A stretch of DNA of 64,000 nt from the human T2T-CHM13v2.0 reference genome, Homo sapiens (GCA_009914755.4 CP086569.2:1120001-1184000), one strand, 5' to 3'. Shown: positions 1 to 64,000, counted from the first letter of the stretch. The notes: generated by a model from the letters alone, not told the origin. Numbers and translations: made by a program.

Positions 1-1345
1 GGTTCAAGAGATTCTCCTGCCTCAGCCTCCCGAGTTTCTGGGAGTACAGGTGCCTGCCACCACGCCTGGCTAATTTTTCTTTCTTTTTTTGTTTCTGTAT
101 TTTTAGTAGAGACAGGGTTTTGCCATGTTGGCCAGCCTGGTCTCGAACTCCTGACCTCAAGTGATCCACCCGTCTCGGCCTCCCAAAGTGCTGGGATTAC
201 AGGCGTGAGCCACTGCGCCCGGTCAGAAACAGGGTTTTTCTTTTGTTTTGTTTTTATGTTTTCAGACGGAGTTTCACTCTTGTTGCCCAGGCTGGAATGC
301 AGTGGCACAATCTCGGCTCACTGCAACCTCTGCCTCCCAGGTTCCAGAGACTCTCCTGCCCCAGCCTCCTGAGTTTCTAGGAGTACAGGTGCCTGCCCCC
401 ATGCCCGGCTAATTTTTCTTTTTTGTTTTTGTATTTTTATTTGAGACACGGTTTCACCATGTTGGCCAGCCTGGTCTTGAACTCCTGACCTCAAGTGATC
501 CACCCCTCTCGGCCTCCCAAAGTGCTGGGATTACAGGCGTGAGCCACTGCGCCCGGTTAGCAAGAGATTTTTGTTGTTTTTTTTTTTTGTTTTATGTTTT
601 GAGATGGAGTTTCACTCTCCTCACCCAGGCTGGAGTGTAGTGGCACGATCTCAGCTCACTGCAACCTCCACTTCCGGGTTCAAGCGATTCCCCTGCCTCA
701 GCCTCGCGAGTAGCTGGGATTACAGGCGCCCACCACCACACCCAGCTGATTTTTGTATTTTTAGTAGAGACGGGGTTTCTCCCTGTGGGTCAGGCTGGTC
801 TCGAACTCCTGACCTCAGGTGATCCGCTCCCCTCGGCCTCCCAAAGTGCTGGGATGACAGGGTAAGCCATTGCACCCGGCCTTTTTTTGATATTTTTAGT
901 AGAGATGGTGTTTCCCCATGTTGGCCAGGCTGGTCTCGAGCTCCTGACCTCAACTGATCCACCTGTCTCGGCCTCCCAAAGTGCTGGGATTACAGGCGTC
1001 AGTCAATGAGCCCGGTCAGCAAGAGATTGTTTTTGTTTTGTTTTGTTTTGTTTTATGTTTTGAGATGGAGTTTCACTCTTGTCGTCCAGGCTGGAGTGCA
1101 GTGGCATGAACTCAGCTCACTGCAACCTCCGCCTCCCAGGTTCAGGTGATTCTCCTGCCTCAGCCTCCCGAGTAGCTGGGATTACAGGCGCCCGCCATCA
1201 CGCCCGGCTAATATTTCTTTGGTGTTTTTAGTAAGAGATGGTGTTTCACCATGTTGGCCAGGCTGGTCTTGAACTCCTGACCTCGTGATCTGCCCACCTC
1301 AACCTCCCAAAGTGCTGGGATTACAGGCGTGAGCCAGCGAGCCTG
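1..1345 (-). mobile_element. Tandem array of at least 4 Alu units in minus orientation (1-213, 258-557, 575-878 plus partial 880-1015, 1030-1345). Each unit is followed by the same spacer, ggtYagcaagagatt…gttttatgttttgagatggagtttcactct.
   Basis: Alu consensus read as reverse complement (ggcYgggcgcagtggctcac … polyT). The shared non-Alu spacer shows these are tandem duplicates rather than independent insertions. Confidence 0.85.
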
Positions 1346-1639
1346 GACCAGAAGCTTGAGCTTTTTGTCATGGAGAATTTCCAGTTGGGAAGGAGTTATC
1401 TGGACAGGATCATTCTGATCACGGTGCCCCAGGGAGACCCCTGTGAGGGGCGCTTTCTGTCATGTAGAGAACAAAGAACAGCCTGAATGAGAAGCTCTCT
1501 GGCAGCATCATCAATGCTCCCAACCCGGCAGAGGGCAGGTGCTCTGCAGACCCCTCCCCACAGCTGAATGGTTTCTCCCTGGGGAAGCTGAGCCCCCCTC
1601 CTTGCCCCTTAATCCCATTCCCCTGAGAGCAGAGCTTCT

Positions 1640-1728
1640 ATTTCTTTTTTTTTCTTTTCTTTTCTCTTTTCTTTTCTTTTTTTCTTTTCTTTCTTTCTTT
1701 TTCTTTTTTTTTCTTTTTTTTTTTTTTT
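1640..1728. repeat. (TTTC)n/(TTCTTT)n pyrimidine microsatellite abutting an Alu poly-T
   Basis: Direct reading. Confidence 0.9.
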
Positions 1729-2016
1729 TGAGACAAAGTCTCTCGCTCCTGTTCCCCAGGCTGGAGTGCAATGGTGCGATCTCAGCTCACTGCAACCTCT
1801 GTCTCCCGGGTTCAAGCAATTCTCCTGCCTCAGCCCCCCGAATAGCTGGGATGACAGGTGGCTGCCACCATGCCCGGCTAATTTTTCTATTTTTAGTAGA
1901 GACAGGGTTTCACTATGTTGGCCATGCTGGTCTGTAACTCCTCTGACCTCAGGTGATCCTCCCGCCTCCACCTCCCAAAGTGCTGGGATGACAGGCGTGA
2001 GCCACCGCGGCCAGCC
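1729..2016 (-). mobile_element. Alu (AluS/Y-like)
   Basis: gagacaaagtctc…ggctcactgcaacctc…gattacaggcgtgagccaccgcggccagcc in reverse complement. Confidence 0.9.
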
Positions 2017-2173
2017 CAGAGCTTTTATTTCTTATCTCTGCATTCCCCCAACTCAATCTTCTCCCCAGCTCCCCTGCTCCCCTACTCCACCTCCTCCCCA
2101 ACCCACCTCCTCCTTCACCTGCTTCTAGCCCCTTCCACGAAAGCTGATGTCCCTTGTGAAAGAAAAATAAATC

Positions 2174-2437
2174 GCCAGGCGCGGTGGCTCACGCCTGTCA
2201 TCCCAGCACTTTGGGAGGCCGAGGCGGGCGGATCACGAGGTCAGGAGATCGAGACCATCCTGGCTAACACGGTGAAACCCCATCTCTACTAAAAATACAA
2301 AAACTTAGCCGGGCGTGGTGGCGGGCGCCTGTAGTCCCAGCTACGCAGGAGGCTGAGGCAGGAGAATGGCGTGAACACGGGAGGTGGAGCTTGCAGTGAG
2401 CCCAGATCGAGCCACTGCACTCCAGCCTGGGCGAGAA
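2174..2437 (+). mobile_element. Alu with a perfect 16-bp target-site duplication gaaagaaaaataaatc (2158-2173 and 2438-2453). The 3' end and A-tail are short.
   Basis: gccaggcgcggtggctcacgcctgtcatcccagcactttgggaggccgaggcggg… Identical 16-mers flank it. Confidence 0.9.
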
Positions 2438-2712
2438 GAAAGAAAAATAAATCTCTGGGCCCCGCTGGGAACTGCTTAGGGCCTCTCCCTCTCATTCTAT
2501 TCAAAGTGACCGTCTGTGCTCACTGAGATAGATGCATATCTCATTGCCTCCTTTAGAGAGGCTAACCAGAAACTCAAAAGAATGCAGCCATTTGGGAGGC
2601 AGACAGGGGCAGATCACCTGAGGTCAGAGGTGTGAGCCACTGCCCCTGGCCCATCTTGCTTATGTTGATTGATTTCTTATGTATCCCTAGAATGTATAAA
2701 ACCCAACTGTGA

Positions 2713-61668: not shown

Positions 61669-61867
61669 ATTTCTGTAACGTGCAAATTTCTGTAACGTGC
61701 ACGCACAGAAGCCTTCAGAATGAAGACCCACGCTCCCAGGGAGGTACAAGCTTTTGGAGTGGAAGAAGAGGAAGAAGAGAAATTCTAATGGGGCTTGGAT
61801 CTTCTCTCCTGGAGTGGGAAAAGAGGAATTCTATTGAGGGAAAGTAAGAGATTGCTAGGAAGATCCT

Positions 61868-62485
61868 TTGCCCAGGCTGGAGTGCAGTGGCGACTCTTGG
61901 CTCACGGCAGCCTCAACATCCCAGGCTTAAACAATCCTCCCACCTCGGCCTCCTTAGTAGCTTGGATGACAGGCATGCACAACCATGACTGGCTAATTTT
62001 TTTCTTTTCTTTTTTTTTCTTTTTTTTGTGAGACAGAGTCTCACTGTGTCACCCAGGCTGGAGTGCAGTGGAGCGATCTCGGCTCACTGCAACCTCCACT
62101 TCCCGGGTTCAAGCGATTCTCCTGTCTCAGCCTCCCGAGTAGCTGGGACTACAGGCACCCGCCACCACGCCCGGCTAATTTTTTTTTTTTAACTTTTTTT
62201 TTTGAGACAGAGTTTCATTCTAGTTGCCCAGGTTGGAGTGCAATGGCGTGATCTTGGCTCACTGCTACCTCTGCTTCCCGGGTTCAAGTGATTCTCCTGC
62301 CTCAGCCTCCCAAGTAGCTGGGATTACAGGCATACGCCACCACACCCAGCTAATTTTGTATTTTTAATAGAGACGGGGTTTCACCATGTTGGCCAGGCTG
62401 GTCTTGAACTTTCTACCTCACGTGATCCGCCCACCTCGGCCTCCCAAAGTGCTGGGATTACAGGCGTGAGCCACTGCGCCAGGCC
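61868..62485 (-). mobile_element. Two partial Alus (61868-62005, 62005-62195) plus a full Alu (62196-62485)
   Basis: Alu left-arm sequences in reverse complement. Confidence 0.85.
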
Positions 62486-62660
62486 GAAGCTGAACTTTTG
62501 TCTCCACTGGCCAAAGGGTGGTTGCACCTTCTCCTCTTACCCCCAGGCCGTTGGACTTTGCCCCACTCCCCCTGAGCCGCCGATAGCCCCTCCTGAGAGA
62601 AAGGATAGAAAAGACTTTGGAGAGGTTTGCAGATGTCTGGGAAGACAATTGCAAAGCTGA

Positions 62661-62960
62661 CCGGGCGCGGTGGCTCACGCCTGTAATCCCAACACTTTGG
62701 GAGGCCGAGGCAGGCAGATCACAAGGTCAGGAGATCGAGACCCTCCTGGCTAACACGGTGAAACCCCATCTCTACTAAAAGTACAAAAAATGAGCCTGGC
62801 ATGGTGGCGGGCACCTGTAATCCCAGCTACTCGGGAGGCTGAGGCAGGAGAATGGTGTGAACCCGGGAGGCGGAGCTTGCAGTGAGCCGAGATCGTGCCA
62901 CTGCACTCCAGCCTGGGTTACAGAGCAAGACTCCATCTCAAAAAAAAAAAAGAAAGAAAA
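62661..62960 (+). mobile_element. Alu
   Basis: Alu consensus. Confidence 0.9.
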
Positions 62961-63009
62961 TTGCAAAGCTTCCTTTCGCCCCCTGGTGATGATGATCCTT
63001 TATTTATTT

Positions 63010-64000
63010 TATTTTATTTTATTTTATTTATTTTTTGAGACTGAGTCTTGGTCTGTCACCCAGGCTGGAGTACAGTGGCATGATCTCGGCTCACTACAAC
63101 CTCCGCCTCCCGGGTTCAAGCGATTCTCCTGCCTCAGCCTCCCTAGTAGCTGGGATTACAGGTGCCCGCCACCACGCCTGGCTAATTTTTGTATTTTTAG
63201 TAAAGACAGGGTTTCACCATGTTGGCCAGGCTGGTGTTGAACTCCTGGCCTCAGGTGATCCACCCGGCTCGGCCTCCCAAAGTGCTGGGATTGTAGACAT
63301 GAGCCACCATGCCCGGCCTCCTTTTTAAATTTTTGAGACAGCATCTTGCTCCTTTGCCCAGGCTGGAGTGCACGATCATGGCTCACTGTAGCCTCAGACT
63401 CCCCGGCTTAGCGATCCTCCTCTCTCAGTCTCCTGAAGTAGCTGGGACCACAGCTGAACGTCACCACACCCGGCTAATTTTTGTATTTTTAGTACAGACG
63501 GGGTCTCACTATGTTGCCCAGGCTGGTCTCCAACTTCTGGCCTCAAGCGATCCACCCTCCTCGGCCTCCCAAAGTGATGGGTCTACAGGCATGAGCCACC
63601 ATGCCTAGCCCAAGTTTTTTGTAGAGATGGAATCTCACTATGTTACCCAGACTGGTCTTGACTGCTAGGCTCCAGTGATCCTCCTGCCTCAGCCTCCCAA
63701 AGTTCTGGAATTACAGCCATTCTTCACGCCTTTGCTGTTTTTTTTTTTTTTTTTTTAGACAGAGTCTCACTCTGTCGCCCAGGCTGGAGTGCAGGGGCAA
63801 AATCTTGGCTCATTGCAACCTCTGCCTCCCAGGTTCAAGCGATTCTCCTACCTCACCCTCCCGAGTAGCTGGGATTACAGGCACGTGCCACCACGCCTGG
63901 CTAATTTGTTTGTTTGTTTGTTTGTTTGTTTGTTTTGAGATGGAGTCTCGCTCTGTCCCCCAGGCCAGAGTGCAGTGGCACGATCTCGGCTCACTGCAAG
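63010..64000 (-). mobile_element. Cluster of minus-orientation Alus and Alu fragments (63010-63320, 63325-63612, 63612-63732 partial, 63740-63910, 63905-64000 running off the window end)
   Basis: Alu consensus, reverse complement, read repeatedly. Confidence 0.85.

What the first reader, a model, noticed from the sequence alone, without database searches (positions are those of the whole stretch)
1..64000. Recurrent tandem amplification of whole Alus: at least ten independent arrays in 64 kb
Beyond ordinary Alu insertions, many Alus here exist as head-to-tail duplicates that share private variants, fusion junctions or co-duplicated non-Alu flank. The loci are 1-1345 (at least 4 units with spacer cagcaagagatt…), 14745-15841, 20046-21790 (5 copies of 60-bp flank plus Alu), 26650-27120, 29596-30490, 45478-46103, 46395-47340 (182/364-bp Alu-monomer satellite), 48500-49207, 57388-58300 (tail-less fusions …gacagagaggagc|tgtggtcaggcac…) and 61269-61668. 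This points to frequent unequal sister-chromatid or homologue exchange, or replication slippage at Alu scale, consistent with the elevated male recombination rate of PAR1. Arrays of this kind are under-annotated because RepeatMasker reports them simply as adjacent Alus.
Basis: seen in the sequence. Interest (0 to 1): 0.55.

Follow-up and report, generated by a model that had tools for sequence, protein, structure and literature searches.

The report
Locally duplicated Alu arrays in CSF2RA
Nine of the ten flagged Alu clusters, plus one more, are real local tandem duplications inside the human CSF2RA gene in the X/Y pseudoautosomal region, and they are dense examples of a known process (unequal exchange between neighbouring Alus), not a new one.

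Summary
Neighbouring Alus at 1-1346, 14748-15841, 20047-21777, 26660-27124, 29596-30487, 46384-47427, 48553-49209, 57386-58233 and 61264-61667 share rare variants, private indels, identical tail-less junctions or co-duplicated non-Alu flank. Twelve control pairs of adjacent Alus share none or one. Locus 45478-46103 fails: it is an AluY nested in the tail of an AluSx, each with its own target-site duplication.

Three arrays (26.7, 29.6 and 57.4 kb) have a middle copy that is a one-switch chimera of its two neighbours, as expected from unequal homologous exchange between adjacent same-orientation Alus. Others point to A-tract misalignment or microhomology. Unit divergence runs from about 1% to about 15%, so the process is long-running.

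The link to the male crossover rate is untested.

Roughly 4.3-4.7 kb, about one sixth of the Alu sequence here, comes from local duplication. Alu-derived tandem repeats and Alu/Alu-mediated duplications are already catalogued, so only the local density is notable. Interest is low to moderate.

The parts
1..1346 (-). Array L1. At least four Alu units: 1-222 (cut by the window start), 264-556, 601-881 and 1062-1346. A left-monomer piece lies at 884-1015. There are three homologous junctions (spacer plus tail) at 223-263, 557-600 and 1016-1061. The array is old: units are 79-92% identical.
   Evidence: The spacer T[CT]AG[CA]AAGAGATT and the tail motif AAAACATAAAAC are shared. Units 1 and 2 share 7 rare variants, and units 1, 2 and 5 share an insertion in the linker.
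14718..15856 (-). Array L2. Units are A 14748-15033, B 15034-15349, C 15350-15547 (right monomer only) and D 15548-15841. The array is flanked by ATACATTTT at 14718 and 15848.
   Evidence: A, B and C share the 6-bp insertion AGTGAG/T and a GGA 3' end; D lacks both. B and C are 92.9% identical. ATACATTTT occurs only twice in the window.
19747..21777 (+). Array L3. The boundary Alu 'a' lies at 19747-20012, and its tail runs to about 20046. Four flank-plus-Alu units follow at 20047-20424, 20425-20777, 20778-21128 and 21129-21480. A related fifth Alu lies at 21511-21777.
   Evidence: TRF reports period 353, 4.0 copies, 93% matches. The flank is 79 bp in the first unit and 58 bp in the other three, with the same 21-bp deletion. 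There are 8 rare variant columns in a neighbour-graded mosaic. Each unit starts at the target-site duplication of Alu 'a' (ATTCAGGGCG).
26660..27439 (-). Array L4. A 224-bp unit occurs twice, at 26660-26887 and 26888-27124. Each unit is a 5'-truncated AluJ plus the spacer AGTTTTTGA. The parental AluSx follows at 27146-27429. The second unit is a chimera of the AluSx 3' end and the AluJ body.
   Evidence: The AluJ-derived part is 1.1% diverged between the two units. The 3' terminus GACAGAGTAAGACTCCATCTC of unit 2 equals that of the AluSx. AGTTTTTGAT occurs three times in the window, all here.
29596..30487 (-). Array L5. Three Alus: X 29622-29902, middle 29915-30183 and Z 30208-30487. The middle copy is a one-switch chimera.
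   Evidence: The middle copy matches X at Alu positions up to 39 and Z at positions from 49 onward. Tail side: 4.5% from Z against 11.8% from X. 5' side: 4.1% from X against 10.5% from Z. Both junctions read GTCCGACC plus a short T run.
44759..45245 (+). A full Alu (44759-45039) followed by a second copy of its right monomer (45051-45245).
   Evidence: TRF reports period 179 and 89% matches. The two are mutual best partners. They share GAGCTGGG and 233A>G (0 of 91 background copies).
45458..46116 (-). An AluY (45504-45793) is inserted in the tail region of an AluSx (45823-46103).
   Evidence: The bodies carry different subfamily diagnostics. They share only 1 rare variant. The outer target-site duplication GGGGAAGCTCTCT lies at 45458 and 46104, and the inner CTCCCTCTTTTTTT at 45469 and 45794.
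46384..47427 (-). Array L7. Five right-monomer units of about 182 bp lie at 46384-46572, 46573-46755, 46756-46937, 46938-47119 and 47120-47310. They form 2.5 copies of a 364-bp higher-order repeat. The last unit continues into a normal left monomer.
   Evidence: Units 2 and 4 are 98.4% identical, and units 1 and 3 are 94.5%. Units 1-4 share a 3-bp deletion and the private string ACAGACATGCATCA. Unit 5 is mosaic.
48553..49209 (-). Array L8. Two copies of a roughly 330-bp unit made of tail, Alu and a 31-bp non-Alu flank. The array ends 123 bp upstream of the CSF2RA exon at 49332.
   Evidence: The flank TAGTTCCTTAAGAT..GGTGATT matches at 28 of 31 bases. The two Alus share 146G>C (0 of 96 background copies) and an indel in CACGAT.CTCA. 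The unit boundaries share a GGTG microhomology.
57379..58306 (+). Array L9. Three Alus: X 57386-57662, middle 57677-57940 and Z 57950-58233. They lie inside a single CAGCAGAG direct-repeat pair at 57379 and 58299. The two internal junctions are identical and lack tails.
   Evidence: The middle copy matches Z at Alu positions up to 36 and X from position 42 onward. Positions 1-41 plus junction: 4.1% from Z against 17.8% from X. Positions 42 to the end: 9.6% from X against 17.3% from Z.
61264..61667 (-). Array L10. A full AluSx (61292-61572) plus a partial duplicate made of its tail and its 3'-terminal 59 bp (61573-61667).
   Evidence: The private string CTCAGGTCACCA is shared and occurs only at these two places in the window.
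25202..53719 (+). Context: the coding exons of CSF2RA, a PAR1 gene. They lie at 25202-25246, about 28233-28382, 30967-31095, 31212-31340, 32784-32957, 37074-37208, 38174-38203, 44378-44515, 47810-47908, 49332-49415 and 53642-53719.
   Evidence: One search gives a Pfam IL3Ra_N match at E = 2.8e-10. Searches match PDB chains 4RS1_B and 4NKQ_B of the GM-CSF receptor alpha subunit.

Best explanation
This is intronic and flanking DNA of human CSF2RA in pseudoautosomal region 1. A minority of its very dense Alu population arose by repeated local tandem duplication after insertion rather than by retrotransposition.

The best-supported route starts with two neighbouring Alus in the same orientation, often one sitting at the other's A-tail. 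They misalign and undergo unequal homologous exchange. This could be a crossover between chromatids or homologues, or homology-driven template switching. The result is three copies from two, and the middle copy is a chimera of its neighbours. This is shown for the arrays at 26.7, 29.6 and 57.4 kb.

In other arrays the misaligned partners appear to be A-rich tracts. Poly(A) tail against poly(A) tail fits the array at 20 kb. Mid-Alu linker against tail fits 46.4 kb and 44.9 kb. A 4-bp microhomology fits 48.5 kb. These three assignments are inferred.

Once two units exist, further in-register unequal exchange and gene conversion expand and mosaicise the arrays. This is inferred from the graded variant patterns at 20 kb and from the 364-bp higher-order repeat at 46.4 kb.

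The process has run for a long time, since unit divergence ranges from about 1% to about 15%. It is one expression of a region-wide tendency to tandem repetition.
For: Duplicates rather than independent insertions:
- Rare shared variants number 3-10 per array against 0-1 in 12 control adjacent pairs.
- The null from 4172 distant pairs is, and the nearest-neighbour excess is 25 observed against 4 expected.
- Non-Alu flank is co-duplicated at L1, L3, L4 and L8.
- Identical tail-less junctions occur at L9, and a private 6-bp insertion at L2.

Unequal-exchange signature:
- The middle copies are one-switch chimeras with the polarity the exchange model predicts, at L4 and at L5 and L9.
- Segment-wise divergences quantify this: 4.5% against 11.8%, 4.1% against 10.5%, 9.6% against 17.3% and 4.1% against 17.8%.
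- The target-site duplication of the L4 AluSx is present three times.

A-tract route:
- L3 units begin exactly at the boundary between the tail of Alu 19747 and its target-site duplication. Internal tails are plain A runs, while the last unit keeps a different AAAT-type tail.
- L7 and the 44.9-kb units run from the linker to the tail.

Long duration: divergences range from 1.1% to 14.7%.

Regional context: many unrelated minisatellites are present, and the CSF2RA exons place the window in PAR1.

[quoted passage not shown] Alu/Alu-mediated duplications with chimeric Alus are also described (PMC6071635).
Against: - Sequence alone cannot separate meiotic unequal crossover from sister-chromatid exchange or replication template switching.
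- For L5, gene conversion among three independent Alus is not strictly excluded, although the matching short-tail junctions argue against it.
- The old arrays (L1, and A against B in L2) rest on fewer shared characters.
The tests use the window's own majority states, which differ from my AluSx consensus at 1 position.
- No second haplotype or species could be examined, so neither copy-number polymorphism nor the timing of events is shown.
- An excess over the genome-wide rate is only roughly estimated.
Confidence: 0.8

Rival explanations
1. All clusters are ordinary independent retrotranspositions. New Alus preferentially integrate into the A-tails of resident Alus in the same orientation, which produces head-to-tail runs without any duplication.
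For: This does explain 45478-46103, where the subfamilies differ and the target-site duplications are nested. It also fits at least 12 other adjacent pairs with 0-1 shared rare variants. It contributes to the bias of 44 same-orientation against 4 opposite-orientation close pairs.
Against: It cannot explain co-duplicated non-Alu flank (L1, L3, L4, L8), identical tail-less junctions (L9), the shared private 6-bp insertion (L2), one-switch chimeras (L4, L5, L9), or units that are 1-4% diverged from each other but 10-25% from the consensus.
Confidence: 0.05
2. The adjacent Alus were inserted independently and later homogenised by short-tract gene conversion, so shared private variants and mosaic copies arise without any gain in copy number.
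For: Mosaic variant patterns occur at L3, L2 and L5. The unrelated AluY and AluSx pair at 45.5 kb shares an odd stretch of about 60 bp that includes the last 25 nt of the Alu. That could be a conversion tract.
Against: Conversion confined to Alu homology does not copy unique flank or spacers (L1, L3, L4, L8). It also does not create two identical tail-less fusions (L9). At L5 and L9 the switch is single and has the polarity predicted for an exchange product. Conversion probably acts in addition to duplication, not instead of it.
Confidence: 0.1
3. The duplications arose by replication slippage or microhomology-mediated template switching in mitotic germline divisions, unrelated to the meiotic PAR1 crossover.
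For: L8 has only a GGTG microhomology at its boundaries. L10 sits next to a perfect 17-bp tandem duplication (61669-61701). Alus are short for classical homologous recombination, and Alu/Alu events have been discussed under non-crossover models (PMC6071635).
Against: Nothing in the sequence excludes it. The chimeric copies are equally compatible with crossover. The abundance of other minisatellites in a region of very high male recombination is circumstantial support for a meiotic contribution.
Confidence: 0.35

Closest known systems
Alu/Alu-mediated rearrangement, the duplication counterpart of Alu recombination-mediated deletion (PMC2041999; PMC6071635)
   Same: Two same-orientation Alus act as substrates. 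A chimeric Alu with one switch point sits at the junction. The duplicated length equals the spacing of the parental Alus. No new tail or target-site duplication is created. This is seen at L4, L5 and L9.
   Different: Here the partners are immediate neighbours, with an offset of 224-293 bp, so the product is an extra Alu-sized unit rather than a kilobase-scale copy-number variant. Repeated rounds build short arrays.
Transposable-element-derived minisatellites and satellites (Jurka & Gentles 2006, as cited in PMC3389668; Ahmed & Liang 2012, PMC3389668)
   Same: These are head-to-tail repeats whose unit is a full or partial Alu. They expand by local duplication and mostly have 2-3 units. They include the 'partial Alu next to a full Alu' pattern, as in L10 and 44.9 kb.
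   Different: That catalogue required at least 95% identity between units. Most arrays here are older (80-93%) and would be missed. Several units also include unique flank. The density here, about 10 arrays per 100 Alu segments, is far above their roughly 0.24% of AluS. The criteria differ, so the comparison is rough.
Higher-order repeat organisation of satellites
   Same: L7 alternates two variants of a 182-bp unit in a 364-bp period. Same-type units are more alike (98.4% and 94.5%) than adjacent units (86-90%).
   Different: There are only 2.5 higher-order copies, the repeat is derived from an Alu right monomer, and it is intronic.
Nested Alu insertion into a resident Alu's A-tail
   Same: Both give a head-to-tail, same-orientation arrangement. 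This is true for 45478-46103 and for many control pairs.
   Different: The arrays share private variants, flanks or junctions and lack per-unit target-site duplications.

Membership tests
Alu/Alu-mediated tandem duplication (unequal homologous exchange product) | The breakpoint partners are two Alus in the same orientation | tested here: met
   At L4, L5 and L9 all partners are in the same orientation.
Alu/Alu-mediated tandem duplication (unequal homologous exchange product) | The junction element is a chimera of the two parents with a single switch and the predicted polarity | tested here: met
   At L4 the switch is in the last roughly 60 nt. At L5 it falls between Alu positions 39 and 49, and at L9 between positions 36 and 42.
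Alu/Alu-mediated tandem duplication (unequal homologous exchange product) | The spacer between the parents is duplicated along with them, and the added unit has no new tail or target-site duplication | tested here: met
   AGTTTTTGA(T) occurs three times at L4. GTCCGACC plus a short T run occurs twice at L5. GAGGAGCTGTGGYCAGGCACAG occurs twice at L9.
Alu/Alu-mediated tandem duplication (unequal homologous exchange product) | The same signature is present in the remaining arrays (L1, L2, L3, L7, L8, L10) | tested here: inconclusive
   L3 shows no chimera with Alu 19747, so the exchange probably lay in the tails. L8 has only microhomology. L1 and L2 are too old and mosaic to resolve.
Transposable-element-derived tandem repeat (Ahmed & Liang criteria) | The unit is at least 20 bp, at least 70% similar to a transposable-element consensus, and present in at least 2 head-to-tail copies | tested here: met
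   and the alignments.
Transposable-element-derived tandem repeat (Ahmed & Liang criteria) | At least 95% identity among units | tested here: not met
   This is reached only by L4 (95.1% overall, 98.9% outside the chimeric end), by the L7 higher-order copies (96.2%) and by L3 units 2 and 3 (96.6%). The others are 80-93% identical.
Independent nested insertion into an A-tail | Each element has its own tail and target-site duplication, and the elements share no private variants | tested here: not met
   This is not met for nine loci. It is met for 45478-46103 only.
Location in human PAR1 | The window contains a gene known to lie in PAR1 | tested here: met
   The CSF2RA exons match at or near 100%. 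The PAR assignment comes from PMC13216315 and from established knowledge. No genome alignment was possible.
Copy-number-variable tandem repeat (VNTR) | Unit number differs between haplotypes | not testable with these tools
   No human or primate collection was available. Scans of the metagenome and prokaryote collections for the flanks found nothing.

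The most novel reading that the evidence does not exclude
In PAR1 a substantial share of the well-known Alu excess, about one sixth of Alu sequence in this window, is made in place by Alu-scale unequal exchange rather than by retrotransposition. The rate would track the extreme male crossover rate, so these arrays would be copy-number-variable recombination footprints. Two of the three mapped switch points (Alu positions 36-49) lie at or next to the stretch that can carry the PRDM9-like 13-mer.
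Probability: 0.2. Interest if true: 0.5.

Novelty: already known. Interest (0 to 1): 0.28.

Why it matters
The result shows that simple Alu counts in PAR1 mix two processes, insertion and local duplication. It gives a concrete, checkable set of about ten short arrays inside a disease gene. CSF2RA deletions cause hereditary pulmonary alveolar proteinosis, and one array ends 123 bp from an exon. These arrays are candidate sites of copy-number variation and of misalignment-driven rearrangement. They could serve as natural markers of unequal exchange in a region with an obligatory male crossover. The mechanism itself adds nothing new to what is known about Alu-mediated rearrangement.

Tried and rejected
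- Raw pairwise identity is a poor test, because young Alus are all alike. I replaced it with tests based on rare shared variants.
- A first shared-derived count was confounded by AluY and AluJ diagnostic positions.
- The left-monomer 'duplications' that TRF suggested at 750-1033, 18102-18403 and 47303-47554 were rejected. Each monomer is closer to the consensus than to its partner.
- TRF rows at 11784, 13768, 31428, 43533 and 61871 were rejected as adjacent unrelated Alus or fragments, with 0 shared rare variants.
- I considered a 31-bp target-site duplication as an alternative reading of L8. I set it aside because the left copy abuts the first Alu's 5' end exactly and the two Alus share private variants.
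- Enrichment of the PRDM9 13-mer is real (35 matches against 5.2 expected). It is driven by a CTC-rich minisatellite. Only 4 matches lie in Alus, 3 of them in arrays, which is not significant by my rough estimate.
- Rfam gave only SRP-like Alu hits and one 5S-like hit.
- Exact-pattern scans of the metagenome and prokaryote-genome collections, looking for contaminating human contigs that might show other haplotypes, found nothing.
- Pfam scans of nine other ORFs gave no informative match.

Full report
**What the window is**

The window is GC-moderate primate DNA. It also holds many unrelated minisatellites.

An ORF at 30850-31266 matches the Pfam IL3Ra_N domain. That ORF and a second one are identical over exon-length stretches to PDB chains of the human GM-CSF receptor alpha subunit. 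They run from 25202 to 53719, and most are at or near 100% identity.

CSF2RA is a pseudoautosomal (PAR1) gene. This rests on established knowledge and on PMC13216315.

**Testing the observation**

Random Alu pairs in the window are 81% identical at the median and 88% at the 99th percentile. Raw identity is confounded by element age, so I used rare shared characters instead.

- I used a consensus-anchored matrix of 101 Alu segments. Pairs more than 5 kb apart share 2 or more 'private' states (seen in at most one distant copy) in 29 of 4172 cases, and 3 or more in 7 of 4172.
- A rarity-weighted score that includes indels puts the best partner of 25 of 101 segments within two ranks along the sequence. 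The expected number is 4.0, the permutation maximum is 13, and binomial P is about 1e-13.

**Locus by locus**

- **1-1346.** Three junctions share the spacer T[CT]AG[CA]AAGAGATT and a tail that begins AAAACATAAAAC. Units 1 and 2 share seven rare variants. Units 1, 2 and 5 share a linker insertion.
- **14748-15841.** Copies A, B and C share a 6-bp insertion and a GGA 3' end that copy D lacks. The only two ATACATTTT 9-mers in the window flank the whole array.
- **20047-21777.** A non-Alu flank plus Alu occurs four times. The flank is 79 bp in the first unit and 58 bp in the other three, which carry the same 21-bp deletion. A fifth related Alu follows with a different flank. TRF reports period 353 at 93% matches.
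- **26660-27124.** A 224-bp unit occurs twice.
- **29596-30487.** Three copies, both internal junctions reading GTCCGACC plus a short T run.
- **46384-47427.** Five right-monomer units form a 364-bp higher-order repeat. Units 2 and 4 are 98.4% identical, and units 1 and 3 are 94.5%.
- **48553-49209.** An Alu plus a 31-bp unique flank is duplicated, with 28 of 31 flank bases identical. The two Alus also share private variants.
- **57386-58233.** The tail-less fusion GAGGAGCTGTGGYCAGGCACAG occurs twice and nowhere else. A single CAGCAGAG pair brackets the three Alus.
- **61264-61667.** A 59-bp 3' fragment shares at least five variants with the neighbouring full Alu.
- **45478-46103 (rejected).** The left element has AluY diagnostics and the right has AluS diagnostics. 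They share one rare variant. Nested direct repeats (GGGGAAGCTCTCT outside, CTCCCTCTTTTTTT inside) fit an AluY inserted into the tail region of an AluSx.
- **44875-45245 (added).**

Three left-monomer 'pairs' that TRF suggested are not duplicates.

**Mechanism: the three chimeric arrays**

Three arrays carry a specific signature. Suppose two adjacent same-orientation Alus, X and Z, misalign and exchange. The product is then X, a chimera and Z, with the X-Z spacer duplicated. The chimera has Z sequence on the side that faces X and X sequence on the side that faces Z.

- **26.7 kb.** The second unit has the 3' terminus of the downstream AluSx (GACAGAGTAAGACTCCATCTC) and then switches to the AluJ body of the first unit. 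Outside the switch the two units differ by 1.1%. The AluSx target-site duplication AGTTTTTGAT is present three times.
- **29.6 kb.** The middle copy follows X at Alu positions up to 39 and Z from position 49 onward. On the tail side it is 4.5% from Z and 11.8% from X. On the 5' side it is 4.1% from X and 10.5% from Z.
- **57.4 kb.** The middle copy follows Z up to position 36 and X from position 42 onward. The figures are 4.1% against 17.8% for positions 1-41 plus junction, and 9.6% against 17.3% for the rest.

These steps are shown by the sequence. Whether the exchange was a meiotic crossover, a sister-chromatid event or homology-guided template switching is not shown.

**Mechanism: the other arrays**

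For the remaining arrays the route is inferred.

- At 20 kb every unit starts exactly where the tail of Alu 19747 meets its target-site duplication. Internal tails are plain A runs, while the last unit keeps a different tail. This suggests exchange between the two poly(A) tracts.
- At 46.4 and 44.9 kb the units run from the mid-Alu A-rich linker to the tail. This suggests linker-to-tail misalignment.
- At 48.5 kb only a GGTG microhomology marks the boundaries.

**Age and amount**

Unit divergences run from 1.1% to 14.7%, so the events are spread over a long period.

A rough tally attributes about 4.3 kb to local duplication. That script under-counted the 20-kb array by one unit, so the figure is nearer 4.7 kb. 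This is about 7% of the window and about one sixth of its Alu-annotated bases.

Close Alu pairs are 44 in the same orientation against 4 in opposite orientation. About half of the same-orientation pairs belong to arrays. The rest fit the known preference for insertion into A-tails and the known depletion of close inverted pairs. Both of those points come from my own knowledge.

**Comparison with what is known**

Alu-derived tandem repeats have been surveyed genome-wide. The survey found 2,663 at 95% or greater unit identity. [quoted passage not shown]

Chimeric Alus at deletion and duplication junctions are the standard signature of Alu/Alu-mediated rearrangement (PMC2041999, title and abstract only; PMC6071635). 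Alu enrichment in PAR1 is documented in the T2T-Y preprint.

The present arrays are therefore members of known classes. What is unusual is their density. By the published 95% criterion, two or three arrays among about 100 Alu segments compare with about 0.24% of AluS genome-wide. That is a rough tenfold excess based on very small numbers and non-identical criteria.

TRF at default settings already reports seven of the ten loci, so they are not invisible to standard annotation.

**What could not be done**

No human or primate collection was available. Scans of the metagenome and prokaryote collections for contaminating human contigs found nothing. Copy-number polymorphism, ancestral states and the claimed link to the male crossover rate therefore remain untested.

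**Verdict**

Local duplication is real, an unequal-exchange signature is present in three arrays, and the PAR1 location is confirmed. The mechanism is heterogeneous, and the recombination-rate link is conjectural.
- The phenomenon is already known, so interest is low to moderate.

Noticed in passing
window 25202-53719 (+): The window contains essentially the whole coding region of human CSF2RA: eleven exon-sized matches that cover protein residues 11-400, the stop lying just after 53719. The Alu arrays sit upstream of the coding exons, in introns, and downstream of the stop. Array L8 ends 123 bp before the exon at 49332.
   Followed up: yes
window 34154-34730, 36023-37034, 37490-37908: The same 43-bp minisatellite family (ACCTGGACCCAGTGTAGACAGGAGGAGACCCTGCCCCACCTCC) lies on both sides of the CSF2RA exon at 37074-37208. 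It shows 216-bp and 303-bp higher-order periods.
   Followed up: no
window 38221-42643: A large minisatellite with a 57-bp unit starts within 20 bp of the 30-bp micro-exon at 38174-38203. It has about 53 copies at 96% matches, plus 34-, 91- and 339-bp variants at its edges. It carries an open frame of 1057 codons that is probably meaningless.
   Followed up: no
window 23065-24004: The PRDM9-type 13-mer CCNCCNTNNCCNC occurs 35 times in the window against 5.2 expected from shuffles. Twenty-one of the matches lie in one CTC-rich minisatellite. Only 4 matches lie in Alus (2753, 27278, 29848, 48798), and three of these are in arrays L4, L5 and L8.
   Followed up: partly
window 45469-45530 and 45794-45850: The unrelated AluY and AluSx share a direct repeat of about 60 bp. 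It consists of CTCCCTC, a T run and the last 25 nt of the Alu (GAGAYGGCGTTTCGCTCTTGT), which is atypical for AluY. It may be a short gene-conversion tract next to the tail.
   Followed up: partly
window 44143-44262 (-): Rfam gives a full-length 5S_rRNA match exactly at the gathering score (38 bits, E = 2.9e-4). It lies about 115 bp upstream of the CSF2RA exon at 44378 and is probably a 5S-derived pseudogene or repeat.
   Followed up: no
whole window: Alu segments lying within 120 bp of each other are in the same orientation in 44 cases and in opposite orientation in only 4.
   Followed up: partly
window 745-1020, 18150-18425, 47295-47566: In three places a full Alu is followed by an extra left monomer plus linker in the same orientation. 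The two left monomers are 81-83% alike but 87-93% like the consensus, so they are not recent duplicates. They may be two Alus that lost a right monomer by linker-to-tail deletion, or free left monomers.
   Followed up: partly
window 4414-5626: A 114-bp minisatellite with 10.6 copies at 88% matches keeps an open reading frame of 377 codons on the minus strand. Weak Pfam hits to it look spurious.
   Followed up: no
window 61669-61701: A perfect 17-bp tandem duplication (ATTTCTGTAACGTGCAA, two copies) lies directly next to the truncated Alu fragment of array L10.
   Followed up: no
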